NCBI GenBank assembly: GCA_964422865.1
Contig: CAYRCU010000001.1
Location: 5,159-69,158, forward strand
Direction: 5' to 3'
DNA: 64,000 nt
DNA from: an uncultured Gammaproteobacteria bacterium
Lineage (GTDB): Bacteria > Patescibacteriota > Microgenomatia > UBA8517
Shown here: in pieces, positions 26,272 through 42,897 of the stretch
How the letters are laid out: every line of letters starts with the position of its first letter
How positions within the stretch are numbered: position 1 is the first letter of the stretch
The notes under the pieces: generated by a model
Told to the model about the DNA's origin: nothing
The model's input: the letters and a program-made list of their open reading frames with translations, nothing else
Databases searched by the model: none
Program-made: the position numbers and the translations under genes

Positions 26272-26601
26272 AGGAGGAATGCTTTACTCATTCACCACGC
26301 CTTGGCGGGGTGTGACCCACCGTTATTTTAATTCGAACGAAAGTGAGAATCAAGCTCCGTTTATTTCGAACGGGGAAATAATGCAATTTTTGGTTGCAAC
26401 TAAGCAATTGAATCAGATTTCTTCTCTCGAAATGAGTAATTTTGTTTCTGCTAACTAAGTACATACCTATAAAGAGAAAGAGCCTGAAGATTTTATAAGT
26501 AAAGATTGTGAGTAGCAGAGATGAGCGGGTGCTCAAATTGCAGGTGAATGCACTTCTTGGTCGACTCATGCAGTGAATAATTTTATTAAAAATCGAAAAA
26601 A

Positions 26602-26610
26602 TGTTAGAAT
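26602..26610 (+). promoter_or_regulatory. Extended -10 promoter element (TGtTAGAAT) for cysS
   Basis: TGTTAGAAT lies 20 nt upstream of the cysS ATG. Confidence 0.4.
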
Positions 26611-26629
26611 ACGTCACCGCTGTTCCTAA

Positions 26630-28036
26630 ATGCTATATTTATACAACACAGCAAGCAGAAAGAAGGAAAAACTTGTTCCTCTGATCAAAAACACAGTAAA
26701 GATTTATAGCTGCGGACCAACATTATATAACTACGCTCACATAGGAAATCTTTCAACATATCTTTTCGTAGATCTTCTTAAAAAATACTTGGAGTATTCA
26801 AGCTATGAAGTTTACGATGTGATGAATTTTACTGATGTTGATGATAAAACAATAAAATCTTCTAAAGGTAATAAAACTTTATTGAATGAAATCACCAAAA
26901 AATATGGCGATTCTGTATTGAGTGATTTTGACAAATTAAATATTCGTGAACCTAAAGTACTATGTAAAGCCACGGATCATATAAAGGAGATGATAAAAAT
27001 TGTTCAAATATTACTAGATATGGGTATTGCGTATGTTGCCGAAGATAAAAGTGTATATTTCAGAATTGCAAAATTTGATTCCTATGGAGAATTTGCAAAG
27101 ATAAAGAAAAAGGATTTACTCGCGGGAGCGAGTGGCAGAGTTGCTGCTGACGAATACGAAAAAGAGGACCTTTCCGACTTTGTTCTTTGGAAAGCTTGGA
27201 ATAAAGATGATGGAGAAATATACTGGGAATCTCCTTTTGGTCGTGGAAGGCCGGGGTGGCATATAGAATGTTCTGCCATGAGCATGAAATATCTAGGTCC
27301 AAGCTTTGATATTCACACCGGTGCAGTTGACCTGATTTTCCCACATCATCAGAATGAGATAGCTCAGAGCGAAGCAGCAACAGGGAAAAAATTCGTGAAG
27401 ATATGGTTACATAGGCAGTTTCTTCAGGTGAATAAAACGAAGATGTCAAAAAAACTGCATAATATATATACCCTCCAACAATTACTGAATAAAATTCCAA
27501 GCCCATTAGCATTCAGATATTTGGTACTGGCTAGTCATTACAGGAGTCCACTAAACTTCACTTTTAAATCACTTAGACAATCAAACAATGCAATTGACAA
27601 ATTAGGTAATTTTATTGAGAGGATATTTGAACAAGAGGATAAGCAAAAAGATACAAGACAGAATTTAAGTAGATTAAAAAAAGAGTGTACTTCTGCCAGA
27701 AAAAGTTTTGTCCGTTACATGGACGACGATTTAGACACACCACGAGCTTTGGCTAGTTTATATGTTTTTACAAAGAGGATAAATAGCTATATGGATGATG
27801 ATGTGGTTGGCCCCCAAGGTGCGAAGTTGGTTGTCCGTTTTCTAAAAGAAATTGATACGGTTTGGGGATTTATATTTCAAAACAATGATTCACTAGAGGA
27901 TAGTAAACTAAAAACCAAAGTTAAGAACTTGGTAAGTAAAAGAAACGAGTATCGCAGATTGGGAAAGTGGGAGAAAGCGGATGTAATAAGAAAAAAACTA
28001 TTAGCTATGGGAGTAACTGTTAAGGATACACAATAG
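26630..28036 (+). CDS. cysS: Cysteinyl-tRNA synthetase
   Basis: CGPTLYNYAHIGN (HIGH-type) and KMSKK (KMSKS) motifs. Zinc-binding Cys. Confidence 0.9.
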   Translation: MLYLYNTASRKKEKLVPLIKNTVKIYSCGPTLYNYAHIGNLSTYLFVDLLKKYLEYSSYEVYDVMNFTDVDDKTIKSSKGNKTLLNEITKKYGDSVLSDFDKLNIREPKVLCKATDHIKEMIKIVQILLDMGIAYVAEDKSVYFRIAKFDSYGEFAKIKKKDLLAGASGRVAADEYEKEDLSDFVLWKAWNKDDGEIYWESPFGRGRPGWHIECSAMSMKYLGPSFDIHTGAVDLIFPHHQNEIAQSEAATGKKFVKIWLHRQFLQVNKTKMSKKLHNIYTLQQLLNKIPSPLAFRYLVLASHYRSPLNFTFKSLRQSNNAIDKLGNFIERIFEQEDKQKDTRQNLSRLKKECTSARKSFVRYMDDDLDTPRALASLYVFTKRINSYMDDDVVGPQGAKLVVRFLKEIDTVWGFIFQNNDSLEDSKLKTKVKNLVSKRNEYRRLGKWEKADVIRKKLLAMGVTVKDTQ

Positions 28037-28111
28037 AACAACAAAGTTAGGATAAATTGGAACCTTCCCACAATAATAATGATTACAAGAAAATATCCAC
28101 GAATTATTTTG

Positions 28112-28184
28112 TGACCCCACCCGGATTTGAACCGGGGTTTCTGGGATGAGAACCCAGTGTCCTGAACCACTAGACGATGGGGCC
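28112..28184 (-). tRNA. tRNA-Glu (anticodon CUC)
   Basis: Hand-folded cloverleaf. Acceptor stem GGCCCCA/UGGGGUC. D-stem GUCU/GGAC. Anticodon stem CUGGG/CCCAG with loop UUCUCAU. T-stem CCCGG/CCGGG with loop UUCAAAU. 73 nt, no encoded CCA. Confidence 0.8.
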
Positions 28185-32128: not shown

Positions 32129-32863
32129 CTATTCTAAATCAACGACGAGCTCTTGCCAATTGTTGGGGCTGACGCTTTCCAGATTAACGGCATTTTTGAT
32201 TGAATATTTATCTATCTTTGTTCGCTTGAGATTTTTAAGGTAGGCAAAAGTCTTTAGAGATTTGCCAATATCTCTGGCAAGGGCGCGAATGTATGTGCCG
32301 GAGGAGACTTTGCATTCAATTGAAAGGGTTGGATATTTATAGGCAAGAAGTTTAATTGAATAAACAATAACTTTTCTGGGTTTAAGTTTTACTTTTTTGC
32401 CTTTTCTGGCAAGATTATAAGATTTTTTGCCATCTACTTTTATGGCTGAGTATATGGGTGGCTTTTGGATAAGTTCCCCGGTAAATTTTTTGAGTACTTT
32501 TATCACTTCCTTTTTTGAAGGCTTTATGTTTGTGTTTCTGTTTACTGCTTTTCCCTCAACGTCATCCGTTGTTCTTTCTTCACCCAGCAGTATTTCGGCT
32601 TCGTATGTTTTTGTGGTGTTTTTTGAAATTGCACCAAGTTTCTTTGTGCTTTGGCGCTTAATACCAATTATAAGAAGACCTGTGGCATTTGGGTCGAGAG
32701 TTCCTGCGTGACCTACTTTTTTTATGCCAGTAAACTTTCTTACTTTGTTAACAACATCATGAGAGGTGATACCCTTGGGCTTATTTATTAGAAGGAACAT
32801 ACACTGTTTGTTGATATAATTTCTCAACTTTTTCCCAGTCAACAATATTCCACCAAGCTTCAA
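32129..32863 (-). CDS. truB: tRNA pseudouridine(55) synthase TruB
   Basis: GHAGTLDPNATGLL catalytic Asp motif. The true start is probably the internal MFLLINKP. Confidence 0.85.
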   Translation of the reverse strand: MKLGGILLTGKKLRNYINKQCMFLLINKPKGITSHDVVNKVRKFTGIKKVGHAGTLDPNATGLLIIGIKRQSTKKLGAISKNTTKTYEAEILLGEERTTDDVEGKAVNRNTNIKPSKKEVIKVLKKFTGELIQKPPIYSAIKVDGKKSYNLARKGKKVKLKPRKVIVYSIKLLAYKYPTLSIECKVSSGTYIRALARDIGKSLKTFAYLKNLKRTKIDKYSIKNAVNLESVSPNNWQELVVDLE

Positions 32864-33236
32864 TATACTTTGCTTTCTGATTTTGATACTTTAGGTAATA
32901 GGCATGCTCCCCAAAGGTTTTGTTTATTGCATTTTTTAGATCACCTTCCGGCTCTCTTTTACCGTCGGGGCTCATTATTTGCCAGAATAATGTGTGGTTG
33001 GCATGACCTCCACCATTATTGATCACTGATTGCCGGATGCTCTCCGGAACATCATTAATACTTTTGAGAAGATCTTCGATGGAGAGTTTTTGCAACTTAG
33101 GGTGTTTTGCAAGGATGTCGTTTAGTTTCTTTACATAACCTGCATGGTGTTTTTGATGATGCAGGTGCATTGTTTGCTCGTCTATGTATGGCTCAAGGCT
33201 TGAATAGTTATAGGGTAAGTCAGGTAAATTGTGCAT
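32781..33236 (-). CDS. Fe/Mn superoxide dismutase homolog with an in-frame deletion of the central beta region
   Basis: N-domain HHxKHH and GGHANHTLFW are intact. The sequence then jumps directly to EHAYYLKYQN...WNIVDWEKV, so about 70 aa including the Asp ligand region are missing. 151 aa versus about 200 expected. Confidence 0.65.
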   Translation of the reverse strand: MHNLPDLPYNYSSLEPYIDEQTMHLHHQKHHAGYVKKLNDILAKHPKLQKLSIEDLLKSINDVPESIRQSVINNGGGHANHTLFWQIMSPDGKREPEGDLKNAINKTFGEHAYYLKYQNQKAKYIEAWWNIVDWEKVEKLYQQTVYVPSNK

Positions 33237-33259: not shown

Positions 33260-34417
33260 GTGAAAAAAAGTTTCAGTTTTGTGGTGGTTTTTTTAATTGT
33301 CTTACTTGCCAATAATAGCGCTTTTGCCTCCGACGATTCACATGGCAAAAGTAGTGCAAATAATAAATATGGAATCCATATTTTAAATGAGAGTGATTTG
33401 GATGATGCTGCTAAACTTGTGAACGGCGGAGGTGGAGAATGGGGATATGTGACAATAGTTATTCGAAAAGATGAAAGGGACAGTGCTTACTGGAATAAAA
33501 TGTTTAAGAGATTTTCAGAACTTAAGTTGATACCGATTGTTAGAATTGCCACCATAAGCCAAGGAGGTATTTGGGAAAAACCCAATGAAAAGGATGCGGG
33601 AGCTTGGGCCGAATTTTTAGATTCTCTTCCCTGGCCTGTTAAAAACAGATATGTTGTCCTATTTAATGAGCCAAATCATGCTAAAGAATGGGGCGGAGAG
33701 ATAAATCCGAAAGAATACTCAAAAATAGTTAGAGTTTACTGGGAGGAGCTGAAGAAAGCTTCTTTTAACTTTTTTGTGCTTTCTGCCGGGTTTGATGCTG
33801 CCGCTTTAAACACAAGGGAGACAATGGACAGTGCTGTCTTTTTTGAAGAAATGTACAAGCAAGATGAATTAGTGTTTACGCTTTTTGATGGCTGGGCATC
33901 TCATTCTTATCCAAATCCCGGGTTTATGGGAAGTCCGCAGGAAGACGGAAAGATGAGTATTAGAGGATATGATTGGGAAACTAATTTTCTTTATAAATTT
34001 GGACTGAGACGTAATATACCGGTATTTATCACGGAAACCGGATGGAGTAATTTGCTGGGTGAAAGCAAAATTTCAGAAAACTATAGATATGCTTTTGAAA
34101 GAGTCTGGAATGATGAAAGAATAGTAGCTATTACCCCCTTTGTTCTTAATTATACGTCTTACCCATTTAGCATGTTTTCTTGGATAAATCCTTCTACCGG
34201 TGAATACTATTCTTACTACAAAGTTGTAATGGAAATTCCTAAAGTCAAAGGAAAGCCTGAGATGGAGAAAAGAGAAAAGAAAGTGAAGGGTAGAAAAACA
34301 GTCGCTTTTGAGAAATATCCATTTTTGGTGGATTATATTCGCGGTGAAAGCAAAATTAAAAAAACATTCTTGCAAAACCTGCAGATTAATCTAATAGGGA
34401 CAACTTTCTTATTATAG
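33260..34417 (+). CDS. Secreted clan GH-A (GH5-like) glycoside hydrolase-like protein
   Basis: Signal peptide. NEPN (acid/base Glu) and ITETGW (nucleophile Glu) signatures of (beta/alpha)8 GH-A enzymes. Confidence 0.5.
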   Translation: MKKSFSFVVVFLIVLLANNSAFASDDSHGKSSANNKYGIHILNESDLDDAAKLVNGGGGEWGYVTIVIRKDERDSAYWNKMFKRFSELKLIPIVRIATISQGGIWEKPNEKDAGAWAEFLDSLPWPVKNRYVVLFNEPNHAKEWGGEINPKEYSKIVRVYWEELKKASFNFFVLSAGFDAAALNTRETMDSAVFFEEMYKQDELVFTLFDGWASHSYPNPGFMGSPQEDGKMSIRGYDWETNFLYKFGLRRNIPVFITETGWSNLLGESKISENYRYAFERVWNDERIVAITPFVLNYTSYPFSMFSWINPSTGEYYSYYKVVMEIPKVKGKPEMEKREKKVKGRKTVAFEKYPFLVDYIRGESKIKKTFLQNLQINLIGTTFLL

Positions 34418-34440: not shown

Positions 34441-35673
34441 ATGACTGCGGAAAGTATTGGGGGGAAATACAGATCCATAATACCCGAGAGAGGTGGCTCT
34501 ACTTCTGAAATTCCCGATGATGTCCCGGCTCCAAGGATCAGTATTTCTCAAATTGAAATTGCCTTAAGTGTTATTGAGAACGACACAACTCTGAAAGAAG
34601 CAGAGACAAAAGAGTATCCTTTTGATTCACTTGAAGTTGTTATTGCATCAATGCGGGGAACTTCTCTGCATGTATTAAGCACGCTTGCTTCTGTAATTGC
34701 TCGAGAAGAACAAAGAGGTGCCTCAGAAGAAATAGATCCCAGGGTTTTGCAAGAATATTTTCCAACTTTTCCTGCTCGCGGGCTTAGAATTATTGCAAGG
34801 CTAATTGATGATTCCCGTAATTTAACTCCAAGGAAATTGGAAAAGTATTTTGGAGAAGAATACGGGGCAGACAGACAATTGTTGTGTGAAGCTTTAAGAG
34901 ATGGTGTCAGCAATTGGGAAGAGTCTTTGTTGGGCAAGCAAATTTATATGGCTTGGCAGATTTATCGATATATACAGTTAAGACATTTTTGTGATTGGGA
35001 TAAAAATTCACCCGGTTATAGTGCAAATGATCTTAAGAATGCTTGGCTTGACGAAAGCATTGAAGAAAGAGGAATAAAACTAATTGAGTGGTGGCTTAGT
35101 GAAGAAAACTGCAATCTTTTGGAACAATTAACCGATCCTAACACAAAAGTACATTTTGAAATGACTGTTATTAATAACATTTCTTTGTTGGGTGCTCGGG
35201 CGCAAGTTCCGGTTCGAAACGATGTAATTATTCGTCCCGGTGACGATCAACTGGTGATAGTCGACTTTAAATTTGGAAACGAAGAGTTTGGCTATAACTC
35301 TGCGGGGGAGATGGAAATATTAATGATGTGTATGTGTGGAGAGGTGTTGAGAAAATATCTTCGTGGGAGAAGCTATGGTGTCTATCATGGCGAGCCAATA
35401 ATTATGAAGAGAAGAAAAGAGATTGTTATCCCTTTTTCAGGAACTTTTTTTTATTATTTAATTGGCGAGAGTGATGGAAGAATACGAGAGGTGGAGCTGA
35501 CACCTGATGAAGAAATGCAGAGGAAGGGAGCAGATAATTTACGTGGGCTAATAATGGAAGTTCACAGAAGAAAGCCTGTGTTTAGAGAAGTTGTTAACAG
35601 ACACAAGAATACAAGAGGGTGGAAATCTCCCAAGGCCGAGTGGGAGATGAAAGAGGGAACAGTGCACTTGTAG
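34441..35673 (+). CDS. Hypothetical protein with a C-terminal PD-(D/E)xK nuclease core (RecB/Cas4-like DYK-type motif)
   Basis: ...HFEMTV...IIRPGDD-QLVIVDFKFG... gives E, (P)D and D-x-K in canonical order and spacing. The VDFKFG resembles the RecB-family vvDYKtG motif. The N-terminal 250 aa are unassigned. Confidence 0.45.
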   Translation: MTAESIGGKYRSIIPERGGSTSEIPDDVPAPRISISQIEIALSVIENDTTLKEAETKEYPFDSLEVVIASMRGTSLHVLSTLASVIAREEQRGASEEIDPRVLQEYFPTFPARGLRIIARLIDDSRNLTPRKLEKYFGEEYGADRQLLCEALRDGVSNWEESLLGKQIYMAWQIYRYIQLRHFCDWDKNSPGYSANDLKNAWLDESIEERGIKLIEWWLSEENCNLLEQLTDPNTKVHFEMTVINNISLLGARAQVPVRNDVIIRPGDDQLVIVDFKFGNEEFGYNSAGEMEILMMCMCGEVLRKYLRGRSYGVYHGEPIIMKRRKEIVIPFSGTFFYYLIGESDGRIREVELTPDEEMQRKGADNLRGLIMEVHRRKPVFREVVNRHKNTRGWKSPKAEWEMKEGTVHL

Positions 35674-35698
35674 TTTAACTTCAACTTATATAGAATGT

Positions 35699-36313
35699 TT
35701 GTTTAATATGTTTGAGGTTATTTTTGATGTTGAAACTCAGAAGTTTTTTGATGAGATTGACGATAATGATCCCGGCAAACTTGGGGTAAGCATTGTATCT
35801 GTTTATTCAAGAAAGCTTGATGATAATTTCAATGAAATCGAAGGAAAAATGGAAAGCTTTTGGGAGAAAGAGCTTGCTGAAATGTGGCCTATTTTCCAAA
35901 GGGCAGACCGGATTATTGGATTTAACAGTGTAAAGTTTGATGTGCTAACTTTAGAGCCCTATGCAGACTTTCCTTTTGGCAAACTCCCCCACTTTGATAT
36001 TTTAGAGGAGGTTAAAAGATCGTTTGGCAGAAGAGTGAAACTTGATGCAATTGCAAAAGATACACTGGGAAATGTCAAAAATGACCACGGAGCAAATGCT
36101 GTAAGATATTACAAAAGCGGAGACAGAAAAAGTTTGGAAAAGCTAAAAAAATACTGTGAAATGGATGTCGTGATTACACGAGACATATATGATTACGGAC
36201 TTAAAAACGGAAGGCTTAAGTTTACTGATCACTGGAACACTCCAAGAGAAATAGAAGTTGATTTTAGCTATCCGGAGACGGAGTCTTTGGATGCACAGAT
36301 TGGACTTTTTTAA
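35699..36313 (+). CDS. Stand-alone DEDDy-type 3'-5' exonuclease (RNase H-like fold)
   Basis: Exo I FDVETQ, Exo II GFNSVKFD, Exo III YCEMDVVITRDIY (YxxxD). Lies 25 bp downstream of the PD-(D/E)xK gene. Confidence 0.6.
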   Translation: MFNMFEVIFDVETQKFFDEIDDNDPGKLGVSIVSVYSRKLDDNFNEIEGKMESFWEKELAEMWPIFQRADRIIGFNSVKFDVLTLEPYADFPFGKLPHFDILEEVKRSFGRRVKLDAIAKDTLGNVKNDHGANAVRYYKSGDRKSLEKLKKYCEMDVVITRDIYDYGLKNGRLKFTDHWNTPREIEVDFSYPETESLDAQIGLF

Positions 36314-41758: not shown

Positions 41759-42265
41759 TCAAATGTAATAATTTAATAAAATGTAAATCCCCATGCTTAA
41801 AAGCAACATTGAGCCGAGACTTAAAATAATTGATTGAAAGGGGAACAAAACTTTTCCGTTTTTCTTTTTAATCAGAGTGTTTACCGTGTCAACTAAATAA
41901 AACAATATTCCTCCTGCAAGTATGCCGAATGTTAATTTAGGGAGATTAAATACAAGACCATTATGCTCATTTATAAGTCCAAATCTGTAGAAGGATACTA
42001 TTGTTGTAACAAAAATTAATAGATAGAAAACTTGCTTTTGGAATGGAATGTAAGTTTTATTAACTGAATTTGTGATCCAGAAACTCATAGCACCCAAGAA
42101 CGCACCCATCCAAACTCCGGTGATGGAATCGTCGATGCCCAGCACTCTTGAGAGTGACAACCCTGCGCCCGCACCCGCTACACAGAGTGGACAGTGCGCG
42201 TGAGCCGGTTTTGCAAATAATAAGCCCGTTATTGATAAGGGGATGCTGTATTTTAAGTTTTTCAT
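41759..42265 (-). CDS. Polytopic membrane protein with an N-terminal HCPLC motif
   Basis: Signal-like start. AHAHCPLCVAG. Four TM helices. Confidence 0.4.
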   Translation of the reverse strand: MKNLKYSIPLSITGLLFAKPAHAHCPLCVAGAGAGLSLSRVLGIDDSITGVWMGAFLGAMSFWITNSVNKTYIPFQKQVFYLLIFVTTIVSFYRFGLINEHNGLVFNLPKLTFGILAGGILFYLVDTVNTLIKKKNGKVLFPFQSIILSLGSMLLLSMGIYILLNYYI

Positions 42266-42897
42266 CTGATTACGGTTCCATCAAAGGTTAACTCTTTGAT
42301 TCCCGACGGTTTGCTAAAGGTTAGTCGCACGGCTCTATTGAAAGGCCCTACTCCCTGCGGACCATGAGCAGCAGGATTAAACTCCACAATTATTTTTGCT
42401 GTTTCTCCGGGAGGGATTTCAAAATTTATTGGAGGATTCTTATCTCCCGGGTGCTCCATGCCAAAAAATCTTGATTCTTTGCCGTTTAGTGACACCTTTG
42501 CCTTAGTACACATGCAGGAAGTTACAATTTTTTGCAATTTTGCGGTTTGAGTGGTCTCGTTTTTTACTTCATATTCTCTTGAGATTAAACCACCATTAAT
42601 CGGAACGTCACCGAGTTTGTAAGTTTCAGGACTAATTTGAATATCGGTAATCTGGACCTGAGATTGATTATTTTCGTCTGCAGTGCTTTCTTCTGTACCT
42701 TGCGAAAATGCAAAACCTATAACCAGAACGGCTGTAAGCGCAATAATTCCAAAAAATATTTTTATATCGCCAGATCCAAACTTGTTTATATCGCCAGATC
42801 CAAACTTGTTTATATCACTAGATCCAAACTTGTTTATATCACTAGATCTAAACTTGTTTATATCGCCAGATCCAAACTTGTTTATATCGTTTCCCAT
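42262..42897 (-). CDS. DUF1573-domain membrane protein with five N-terminal DINKFGSG repeats
   Basis: Tandem octapeptide repeats, one TM, and DUF1573-like TSCMCTKAKV. Confidence 0.55.
   Translation of the reverse strand: MGNDINKFGSGDINKFRSSDINKFGSSDINKFGSGDINKFGSGDIKIFFGIIALTAVLVIGFAFSQGTEESTADENNQSQVQITDIQISPETYKLGDVPINGGLISREYEVKNETTQTAKLQKIVTSCMCTKAKVSLNGKESRFFGMEHPGDKNPPINFEIPPGETAKIIVEFNPAAHGPQGVGPFNRAVRLTFSKPSGIKELTFDGTVIR
42760..42897. repeat. Five and a half copies of a 24-bp tandem repeat (GATCCAAACTTGTTTATATCGCCA) encoding DINKFGSG
   Basis: Direct inspection. Copies are near-identical, with a few substitutions. Confidence 0.8.

What the first reader, a model, noticed from the sequence alone, without database searches (positions are those of the whole stretch)
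34441..36313. Two-nuclease module: PD-(D/E)xK (RecB-like DYK motif) protein plus stand-alone DEDDy 3'-5' exonuclease
The 410-aa protein has an unassigned N-terminal roughly 250 aa. Its C-terminus shows the canonical E...PD...(D/E)xK order (HFEMTV / IIRPGDD / LVIVDFKFG), where VDFKFG resembles the RecB/Cas4-type vvDYKtG. 25 bp downstream is a 204-aa DEDDy exonuclease (FDVETQ, FNSVKFD, YCEMD) with no polymerase attached. A restriction-like endonuclease paired with a proofreading-type exonuclease has the look of a phage-defence or DNA-processing module. GC is somewhat elevated. There is no methyltransferase partner adjacent.
Basis: partly seen in the sequence, partly recalled or inferred. Interest (0 to 1): 0.6.

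Follow-up and report, generated by a model that had tools for sequence, protein, structure and literature searches.

The report
Orphan nuclease beside housekeeping exonuclease
A widely conserved proofreading-type exonuclease of Microgenomates (CPR) bacteria happens to sit just downstream of a very rare, lineage-specific gene that probably encodes a highly diverged RecB/Cas4-like nuclease; the two are neighbours by insertion, not a conserved two-nuclease or defence module.

Summary
Both ORFs are real. The 204-aa protein (more likely 201 aa from ATG 35708) is a PF13482, PolB-exo-like DEDDy exonuclease with all six catalytic residues invariant. It belongs to a family of more than 1,500 clusters, conserved at 50-75% identity across Microgenomates.

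The 410-aa protein is close to an orphan. Searches of 5.8 and 1.8 billion proteins found one 97% copy and two lineages at about 27% identity. It has no Pfam, NCBIfam, PADLOC, PHROG or significant PDB match. H77, E240, D261 and D275-x-K277 are invariant on a predicted beta-beta-beta-alpha core. Its only weak profile hits are RecB/Cas4-type nuclease domains, in catalytic register. So it is probably a Cys-less, diverged RecB/Cas4-like nuclease.

The pair does not recur. None of 80 other species has a relative of the 410-aa gene within 5 kb of the exonuclease, and neither remote homologue has an exonuclease neighbour. Relatives with the same upstream block (L037, L089) show the slot before the exonuclease is variable.

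One twist: in 34 of 77 related loci the exonuclease lies within about 2.5 kb of a canonical Cas4-like PDDEXK_1 nuclease, in housekeeping context. Structure prediction failed (pLDDT 40), so the fold test is inconclusive.

The parts
34441..35673 (+). 410-aa orphan gene (p410), a probable diverged Cys-less RecB/Cas4-like PD-(D/E)xK nuclease
   Evidence: The ORF is. Searches found only a 97% copy (P0001) and two lineages at about 27% identity (P0123, P0124). It has no Pfam, NCBIfam, PADLOC or PHROG family. Against the sister strain L001 it shows 14 synonymous and 12 non-synonymous codon changes.
34534..34557 (+). N-terminal conserved motif R32-I-S-I-S36-Q-I-E39
   Evidence: R32, S36 and E39 are invariant in alignment A1. 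The permissive hhalign run places this motif on the W-V-S-H-S-S-I-S...CP motif that opens the canonical PDDEXK_1 domain.
34657..34671 (+). G73-T74-S-L-H77 motif on a predicted helix, a candidate metal-ligand His
   Evidence: G73, T74 and H77 are invariant and lie in predicted helix 64-91. By eye it resembles the G-x-x-V-H motif of the canonical family (consensus LALGQAVHEV). The metal-ligand role is inferred by analogy with RecB-family active sites, from my own knowledge.
35146..35358 (+). Predicted nuclease core, residues 236-306: beta1 with E240, beta2 with D261, beta3 with D275-x-K277, then a helix
   Evidence: The invariant residues are. The strand-strand-strand-helix order appears in both AF2 runs. 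The A1 profile aligns this stretch with the RecB-like nuclease domain of AdnA (6ppu_A/7sjr_A) in the register E / GRLDRL / VVDLKTG / HAQLAMY, and with PDDEXK_1 at IIDFKTG.
35708..36313 (+). Stand-alone PolB-exo-like DEDDy 3'-5' exonuclease (201 aa; an alternative TTG start lies at 35699)
   Evidence: PF13482 at E=2.7e-12. More than 1,584 homologues in Microgenomates-type Patescibacteria. Catalytic residues are invariant. The family profile matches the Pol delta exonuclease domain at 6e-7.
33260..34417 (+). 385-aa protein with a signal-peptide-like N-terminus (p385), co-inserted with p410; context only, not part of a nuclease module
   Evidence: The ORF is. It has no Pfam or PDB hit. It is absent from all 80 other exonuclease loci and from the loci of the p410 homologues. 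Against L001 it shows 12 synonymous and 17 non-synonymous changes.
32781..33236 (-). Fe/Mn superoxide dismutase gene, the left boundary of the variable slot
   Evidence: In L037 the SOD gene lies divergently 38 bp from the exonuclease, with nothing in between. The window copy has a 57-codon in-frame deletion relative to L001.

Best explanation
The two genes are neighbours by insertion, not a dedicated system.

- The exonuclease is a core, strongly conserved Microgenomates gene. It is a stand-alone 3'-5' DEDDy exonuclease related to the proofreading domain of B-family polymerases, and it presumably trims DNA 3' ends in replication or repair. Its family and active site are shown; its substrate is inferred.
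- In this lineage's relatives the exonuclease follows a conserved Lon-YkuD-UppP-TruB(-SOD) block, and the slot between that block and the exonuclease is variable.
- In this species the slot holds two lineage-specific accessory genes: a 385-aa protein with a signal-peptide-like N-terminus, and the 410-aa orphan.
- The 410-aa protein is most likely a metal-dependent nuclease of the RecB/Cas4 (PDDEXK_1-like) branch of the PD-(D/E)xK superfamily. H77, D261 and D275 would bind the metal and K277 and E240 would complete the site. The domain is split by a helical insertion of about 140 aa, lacks the Cas4 Fe-S cysteines and has no helicase partner. The conserved residues are shown; the fold and activity are inferred.
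- The 410-aa gene and the exonuclease are probably co-transcribed here, because the gap is only 25-34 bp and no terminator is seen. That reflects where the gene landed, not a conserved partnership.
For: Exonuclease identity and breadth.

No co-occurrence:
- The A1 profile and tblastn find no relative of the 410-aa protein in 80 exonuclease loci from other species or in six further loci.
- The P0124 locus continues with an 80-aa ORF and then DprA. The P0123 locus continues with a VTT/DedA gene. Neither has an exonuclease within the DNA held.

Variable slot:
- L037 has SOD(-) and EXO(+) 38 bp apart.
- L089 has Lon-PAP2-YkuD-DAGK-UppP-TruB, then a pilin-like gene, then EXO.
- The closest relative, P0003 (74% identity), has NUDIX directly upstream of EXO.

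Accessory-like evolution: the two inserted genes have 29 non-synonymous changes in 790 codons, against 6 in 694 for YkuD, UppP and TruB.

Nuclease assignment:
- H77, E240, D261, D275 and K277 are invariant among lineages about 27% identical.
- The beta-beta-beta-alpha order is reproduced in both models.
- The only PDB hits of the family profile fall on AdnA's RecB-like nuclease domain, with D275 opposite the Asp of VVDLK. By my count that Asp falls at about residue 934-935, so it is probably the D934 whose mutation inactivates the AdnA nuclease (PMC5314763).
- The only weak hit among 5,384 CPR ORFs is a bona fide PF12705/Cas4 protein.
- hhalign gives P=0.0023-0.0027 against that family, compared with P=0.23-0.81 for control families.
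- Of 33 canonical PDDEXK_1 proteins, 14 pass the A1 Viterbi filter where 0.03 are expected.

No defence or mobile-element signal.
Against: - The nuclease assignment has no statistically significant database match. PDB E-values are 1.7 and 3, hhalign probability is 11%, and there is no Pfam hit.
- Motif IV (QxxxY) is only partly present: Q occurs in P0123 and P0124, the window protein has E at that position, and there is no Tyr.
- The tight co-directional spacing with the exonuclease and the absence of a terminator are compatible with a functional operon.
- The exonuclease recurrently lies near a canonical PD-(D/E)xK nuclease in related genomes, so a functional link between the two enzyme types cannot be dismissed.
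- Only 64 kb of this genome was available, so I could not check whether it has a canonical PDDEXK_1 gene elsewhere.
Confidence: 0.6

Rival explanations
1. Functional two-nuclease module. The 410-aa RecB-like nuclease and the DEDDy exonuclease are co-transcribed and act together on DNA ends, one as a 5'-3' or endo-nuclease and the other 3'-5'. In this lineage the 410-aa protein stands in for the canonical Cas4-like nuclease that accompanies the exonuclease in other Microgenomates.
For: - The two genes are on the same strand with a 25-34 bp gap and no terminator-like site between them.
- A canonical PDDEXK_1 nuclease lies within about 0-2.2 kb downstream of the exonuclease in 33 of 77 loci, with a 34th (L083) about 4 kb upstream. 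These fall into two synteny classes that share almost no other neighbour; 7 loci have a 3-bp convergent gap and 1 has a 64-bp same-strand gap.
- The 64-kb window has no canonical PDDEXK_1 gene.
Against: - No 410-aa-family member other than the window's own species is next to an exonuclease.
- No exonuclease locus in 80 other species has a 410-aa relative.
- The canonical pairing is mostly convergent or separated by 1-4 unrelated genes, so it is not an operon.
- 39 loci with at least 2.5 kb of downstream flank lack PDDEXK_1.
- Relatives with window-like synteny (L037, L089) have neither nuclease near the exonuclease.
Confidence: 0.15
2. The 410-aa protein is not a nuclease. The E...D...DxK pattern is a coincidental or structural motif in an orphan protein of unknown fold and function.
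For: - No Pfam, NCBIfam, PADLOC or PHROG match, including when each homologue is scanned alone.
- No significant PDB match.
- hhalign probability is only 11% over about 22-24 columns.
- AF2 models are unusable and the fold searches return noise.
Against: - The acidic, Lys and His residues are invariant across lineages about 27% identical, at spacings matching RecB-family domains (D261 to D275 is 14 residues; the canonical family has 15).
- Two independent weak top hits, one in PDB and one among CPR ORFs, both fall on RecB/Cas4 nuclease domains in catalytic register.
- Control families score far worse.
- The canonical family is systematically enriched through the HMMER filters.
Confidence: 0.2
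3. The 410-aa gene is a single-gene defence or toxin-type nuclease, or cargo left behind by a mobile element, acquired horizontally into a variable chromosomal slot.
For: - The distribution is extremely rare and patchy: three lineages among 1.8 billion representatives.
- It sits in a slot whose content differs between close relatives.
- Its protein sequence evolves faster than that of its housekeeping neighbours.
Against: - No PADLOC hit.
- No relatives in viral contigs, phages or plasmids.
- No integrase, transposase, tRNA-adjacent boundary or meaningful flanking repeats.
- GC equals the genome mean.
- All three homologues sit among housekeeping genes.
Confidence: 0.1

Closest known systems
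RecB-family nuclease domains of helicase-nucleases (AdnA/AdnB, RecB, AddA)
   Same: The order and spacing of the conserved residues match (upstream His, Glu, Asp, then D-x-K-x-G followed by a helix). AdnA's nuclease domain is the only PDB match of the family profile, and D275 aligns with the Asp of AdnA's VVDLK motif, probably the D934 whose mutation inactivates that nuclease.
   Different: There is no helicase motor; the protein is 410 aa and stands alone. A helical insertion of about 140 aa separates the His helix from the first core strand. The match is not statistically significant (E=1.7-3).
Cas4 / solo-Cas4 / Pfam PDDEXK_1 (PF12705), including the canonical protein of about 290 aa found next to the exonuclease in other Microgenomates (nearest solved structures 9iab and 9iac)
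   Same: It is a stand-alone single-domain protein. It has an N-terminal x-S-x-S helix motif, a G-x-x-x-H motif, a G/x-x-D motif II, an I-x-D-F-K-x-G motif III and an aromatic Y-W-Y-L / F-Y-Y-L strand afterwards. This family is the only outlier in profile-profile tests. Solo Cas4 genes outside CRISPR loci are well known (PMC5704561, abstract).
   Different: No cysteine is conserved in the 410-aa family, so it lacks the C...CxxC...C Fe-S cluster seen in the canonical neighbours (C22, C240, C245, C248). It does not reach the Pfam threshold. It is larger because of the helical insertion, and its motif IV is degenerate.
Stand-alone PolB-exonuclease-like DEDDy proteins (Pfam PF13482 RNase_H_2 / PF10108; YprB-like)
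   Same: The 201-aa protein matches PF13482 above threshold across the whole domain, with all Exo I, II and III residues present. Its profile hits Pol delta exonuclease domains.
   Different: It has no TPR, helicase or polymerase domain attached. The label 'DEAD/DEAH box helicase domain-containing protein' that one source gives many family members is not supported by any domain hit.

Membership tests
PD-(D/E)xK superfamily, RecB/Cas4 branch (Pfam PDDEXK_1 PF12705 / Cas_Cas4 PF01930) | Match to the family HMM at or above the curated threshold | tested here: not met
   No PF12705 or PF01930 hit for the window protein or any of its three homologues, even at E<=10.
PD-(D/E)xK superfamily, RecB/Cas4 branch (Pfam PDDEXK_1 PF12705 / Cas_Cas4 PF01930) | Conserved motif II Asp and motif III (D/E)-x-K on consecutive beta-strands, with an upstream motif I acidic residue | tested here: met
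   E240, D261, D275 and K277 are invariant in A1. They lie on predicted strands 236-244, 256-264 and 271-278. They align with the E / GRLD / VDLK motifs of AdnA.
PD-(D/E)xK superfamily, RecB/Cas4 branch (Pfam PDDEXK_1 PF12705 / Cas_Cas4 PF01930) | Motif IV (Q-x-x-x-Y) on the helix after motif III | tested here: inconclusive
   P0123 and P0124 have L-H-Q-R-x-L-M, while the window protein has G-E-M-E-I-L-M. Gln is present in 2 of 3 lineages and there is no Tyr; M296 is invariant instead.
PD-(D/E)xK superfamily, RecB/Cas4 branch (Pfam PDDEXK_1 PF12705 / Cas_Cas4 PF01930) | Restriction-endonuclease-like alpha-beta-beta-beta-alpha-beta fold in a 3-D model | tested here: inconclusive
PD-(D/E)xK superfamily, RecB/Cas4 branch (Pfam PDDEXK_1 PF12705 / Cas_Cas4 PF01930) | Profile-profile similarity to bona fide members | tested here: inconclusive
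   hhalign gives P=0.0023-0.0027 and probability 11-12% over 22-24 columns. That is clearly better than the control families (P>=0.23), and there is filter-level enrichment, but it falls below conventional significance.
Cas4 proper | Four conserved cysteines binding an Fe-S cluster, and association with CRISPR-cas | tested here: not met
   No Cys is invariant in A1. No CRISPR-like repeats were found in the window or the loci, and the window has no Rfam CRISPR match.
DEDDy (DnaQ-like, PolB-exo type) 3'-5' exonucleases, Pfam PF13482 | HMM match above threshold, plus Exo I (DxE), Exo II (Nx3FD) and Exo III (Yx3D) residues | tested here: met
   PF13482 scores 47.4 bits against a cut-off of 22. D7, E9, N73, D78, Y149 and D153 are invariant in 17 homologues.
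Known anti-phage defence systems (PADLOC-DB) | Match of the components to defence-system models | tested here: not met
   The 410-aa protein has no hit. The exonuclease has only a weak CRISPR-associated DEDDh hit at E=0.0047.
Known anti-phage defence systems (PADLOC-DB) | Conserved co-occurrence of the component genes across genomes | tested here: not met
   None of 80 exonuclease loci has a 410-aa relative, and neither remote 410-aa homologue has an exonuclease neighbour.
Type II restriction-modification | Adjacent cognate methyltransferase | tested here: not met
   The neighbours are SOD, the 385-aa protein, GAPDH and a P-type ATPase. No methyltransferase lies near the pair.

The most novel reading that the evidence does not exclude
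Microgenomates may use a clade-specific DNA-end-processing pair, the conserved PolB-exo-like DEDDy exonuclease plus a stand-alone Cas4-like PD-(D/E)xK nuclease. The two are kept close together through genome rearrangements, near RecO in one synteny class. In this lineage the Fe-S Cas4-like partner would have been replaced by an unrelated-looking, Cys-less RecB-like nuclease family placed directly upstream in the same transcription unit. The 410-aa protein would then be the founding member of a previously undescribed nuclease family doing that job.
Probability: 0.1. Interest if true: 0.55.

Novelty: new member of a known kind. Interest (0 to 1): 0.25.

Why it matters
As it stands this is mostly a clarifying result. 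It removes a candidate 'defence module' and shows how an insertion next to a core gene can imitate an operon.

Two smaller points have value:
- The 410-aa protein defines a very rare family, not covered by Pfam, that appears to be an extreme, cysteine-less offshoot of the RecB/Cas4 nucleases. It would be a useful seed for profile libraries.
- The recurrent proximity of a conserved stand-alone DEDDy exonuclease to a Cas4-like nuclease in Woesebacteria-like and Shapirobacteria-like genomes may point to how these reduced-genome bacteria process DNA ends. That could be tested by phylogenetic profiling and biochemistry.

Tried and rejected
- **Enlarging the family.** The word-indexed search with the profile, a viral contig scan, a metagenome contig scan, and phage and plasmid tblastn produced no new members.
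- **P0122.** This 2,278-aa repetitive protein scored E=2e-19 in 14 stretches. A single repeat unit matches only 39 residues (132-170) at a pairwise E of 2e-4. Those residues lie in a segment that P0123 and P0124 lack. I judged the hit repeat-inflated and not informative.
- **Mobile-element boundaries.** Only short A/T-rich repeats at chance level were found. The 16-nt inverted repeat flanking the 410-aa gene (34355-34370 / 35692-35707) is about what chance predicts for 3.5 kb by my own rough estimate.
- **Promoter and terminator scan.** Counts were at shuffle level, so the scan is uninformative apart from showing no terminator between the three + strand genes.
- **CRISPR context** (which would make a Cas4 plus DEDD pair meaningful): none.
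- **Elevated GC / horizontal transfer signal:** not present.
Full report
**What is there.**
The window is a typical small-genome Patescibacteria (Microgenomates-type) chromosome segment. From the ORFs and their N-terminal sequences it encodes translation factors, aminoacyl-tRNA synthetases, Lon and other housekeeping genes, with one tRNA and no integrase or defence cluster.

The two ORFs of the finding exist: 34441-35673 (+, 410 aa) and 35699-36313 (+, 204 aa from TTG). The identical database protein P0002 is 201 aa and its homologues are about 200-205 aa. The exonuclease therefore most likely starts at ATG 35708, 34 bp after the 410-aa stop.

GC is not elevated. The 410-aa gene is 0.401 and the exonuclease 0.371, against 0.395 for the window.

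**The exonuclease.**
It matches PF13482 (RNase_H_2) at E=2.7e-12 over the full domain, with weaker matches to the PolB- and PolA-type exonuclease families, and phrog_403 'DNA polymerase exonuclease subunit' at 8e-18.

D7/E9, N73/D78 and Y149/D153 (numbered from ATG 35708) are invariant in 17 homologues. The family profile hits the exonuclease domain of DNA polymerase delta at about 6e-7.

The family is large and highly conserved. More than 1,584 clusters were found, and 80 species representatives share 47-66% identity, nearly all from Woesebacteria, Shapirobacteria, Collierbacteria, Amesbacteria and unclassified Patescibacteria MAGs. It behaves as a core gene of the clade.

**The 410-aa protein.**
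It has no hit in Pfam, NCBIfam, PADLOC or PHROGs, and no PDB hit. Scanning each homologue on its own also gives nothing.

The search of 5.8 billion proteins found only a 97% copy, P0001, which sits in the same synteny on a JGI contig. The exhaustive HMMER search of 1.84 billion representatives added two true relatives at about 27% identity, P0123 (367 aa) and P0124 (419 aa). It also returned a repeat-inflated match, P0122. Profile, viral, metagenome, phage and plasmid searches added no more members.

The gene is real. The three lineages align end to end, and the window and L001 copies differ by 14 synonymous and 12 non-synonymous codons, a rough dN/dS of 0.27.

**Is it a nuclease?**
In the three-lineage alignment the invariant residues include R32, S36, E39, G73, T74, H77, E240, D261, D275, K277 and G279.

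Both AF2 runs place E240, D261 and D275/K277 on three consecutive strands (236-244, 256-264, 271-278) followed by a helix (287-304). That is the PD-(D/E)xK core order. The models themselves are unusable (pLDDT 34 and 40), and the fold searches on them returned noise.

The motif-II Asp is D261.

Three independent weak signals point the same way:

1. The only PDB matches of the family profile (E=1.7 and 3) fall on a UvrD/Rep-type helicase of about 1,046 aa, chains 6ppu_A and 7sjr_A. I take this to be mycobacterial AdnA, and the matched stretch to be its RecB-like nuclease domain.
   - The register is E / GRLDRL / VVDLKTG / HAQLAMY.
   - By my count the Asp opposite D275 falls at about residue 934-935.
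   - It is therefore probably the D934 whose mutation inactivates the AdnA nuclease (PMC5314763).
2. The only sub-threshold hit among 5,384 ORFs from the fetched CPR loci is a protein that scores 4e-26 on PF12705 PDDEXK_1 and also matches Cas4.
3. hhalign of the family against that PDDEXK_1 family gives P=0.0023-0.0027.
   - Control families drawn at random from the same loci give P=0.23-0.81.
   - Of 33 canonical members, 14 pass the A1 Viterbi filter where 0.03 are expected.

A permissive alignment also places the N-terminal R-I-S-I-S-Q motif on the W-V-S-H-S-S-I-S...CP motif of the canonical domain, and F-F-Y-Y-L on Y-W-Y-L.

I conclude, at roughly 75%, that residues about 30-310 form one RecB/Cas4-like nuclease domain interrupted by a helical insertion of about 140 aa. 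No Fe-S cysteines are conserved. This is a resemblance supported by motifs, not a demonstrated membership, because the Pfam threshold is not met and the fold test is inconclusive.

**Is the pair a module?**

- From the exonuclease side, 80 loci from different species (±5 kb) contain no relative of the 410-aa protein by profile search or tblastn. Six further loci also have none.
- From the 410-aa side, the P0124 locus continues with an 80-aa ORF and then DprA on the opposite strand. The P0123 locus continues with a VTT/DedA membrane protein. Neither locus has an exonuclease or a canonical PDDEXK_1 gene in the DNA held.
- Synteny explains the adjacency:
  - In L037 the Lon-YkuD-UppP-SOD block abuts the exonuclease divergently, with a 38-bp gap.
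  - In L089 the same Lon...UppP-TruB block is followed by a pilin-like gene and then the exonuclease.
  - In the closest relative outside the species (P0003, 74% identity) a NUDIX gene is immediately upstream.
- The slot is therefore variable, and in this species it holds the 385-aa protein and the 410-aa gene.
- Those two genes accumulate amino-acid changes faster than their housekeeping neighbours: 29 non-synonymous changes in 790 codons against 6 in 694.
- There is no sign of a mobile element, CRISPR, a defence-system match or a methyltransferase.

The two genes are probably co-transcribed, since the gap is short and no terminator is seen. That follows from where the gene landed.

**An unexpected observation.**
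A canonical Cas4-like PDDEXK_1 protein lies close to the exonuclease in 34 of 77 clustered loci. It is about 290 aa, has invariant C22, C240, C245 and C248, and its nearest solved structures are 9iab and 9iac.

Three synteny classes emerge:

| Class | Loci | Gene order around the exonuclease (EXO) |
|---|---|---|
| Shapirobacteria-like | 14 | EXO(+) then PDDEXK_1(-), convergent; the gap is 3 bp in 7 loci |
| Woesebacteria-like | 19 | RecO, SufC, EXO, cupin, membrane protein, PDDEXK_1(+), LytR, GlyRS |
| Collierbacteria-like | about 25 | beta-CASP, EXO, Rrf2, SufC, SufBD, SufS; no PDDEXK_1 |

The first two classes share almost no neighbour except PDDEXK_1. That is mild evidence that the proximity has been retained through rearrangement. 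However, 39 loci with enough downstream flank lack it, the arrangement is rarely operonic, and shared ancestry was not corrected for.

This leaves a small probability, about 10-15%, that DEDDy and PD-(D/E)xK enzymes cooperate in this clade and that the 410-aa protein substitutes for the canonical partner here. Only 64 kb of the genome was available, so I could not check for a canonical copy elsewhere.

**Verdict.**

The finding is a core DEDDy exonuclease next to a lineage-specific, very rare, probably RecB/Cas4-like nuclease. That makes it a new and highly diverged member of a known kind. Interest is low to moderate.

Noticed in passing
L009-L069 (e.g. L016:4663-5685 -, L018:5661-6524 +, L013:7035-7946 +): A canonical Cas4-like PDDEXK_1 nuclease (about 290 aa, four invariant Cys) lies within about 0-2.2 kb downstream of the DEDDy exonuclease in 33 of 77 Microgenomates loci, plus one about 4 kb upstream. 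These fall into two synteny classes that share almost no other neighbour. This may be a conserved linkage of the two nuclease types in housekeeping context.
   Followed up: partly
window 32781-33236 (-), breakpoint near 32911; L001:5755-6381: The window's Fe/Mn superoxide dismutase gene has a 57-codon in-frame deletion relative to the 98%-identical strain L001 (151 aa against 208 aa). The deletion removes most of the C-terminal domain up to the 'DLW' just before the EHAYY motif. The gene is probably non-functional, or this is an assembly artefact.
   Followed up: partly
window 26322-28109: A 1.8-kb segment that carries a 468-aa ORF (26630-28036) whose N-terminus looks like cysteinyl-tRNA synthetase, and that ends right at tRNA-Glu (28111-28184), is absent from the otherwise collinear sister-strain contig L001. 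This is either a strain-level indel of an essential-looking gene or a mis-assembly.
   Followed up: no
window 33260-34417 (+): The 385-aa protein has a signal-peptide-like N-terminus and N-E-P / F-I-T-E-T-G-W motifs that recall clan-A glycoside hydrolases, but it has no Pfam or PDB hit. It is co-inserted with the 410-aa gene, absent from all other loci examined, and has the highest share of non-synonymous changes against L001 (12 synonymous, 17 non-synonymous).
   Followed up: partly
P0003-P0121 (homologues of window 35708-36313): One source labels many members of the 200-aa exonuclease family 'DEAD/DEAH box helicase domain-containing protein', although their only domain hits are PF13482, PF10108 and PF01612. 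This looks like a propagated mis-annotation.
   Followed up: no
window 42262-42897 (-): A 211-aa ORF begins with tandem peptide repeats (DINKFGSG / DINKFRSS / DINKFGSS ...). It sits in a run of small ORFs, several with hydrophobic, membrane-like N-termini. Function unknown.
   Followed up: no
window 34834-34950 (residues 132-170 of the 410-aa protein): A lineage-specific insert in the 410-aa protein, absent from P0123 and P0124, gives a weak 39-residue match (31% identity) to each repeat of a 2,278-aa repetitive protein, P0122. That inflates P0122's E-value to 2e-19. The match is probably spurious, and the origin of the insert is unexplained.
   Followed up: partly
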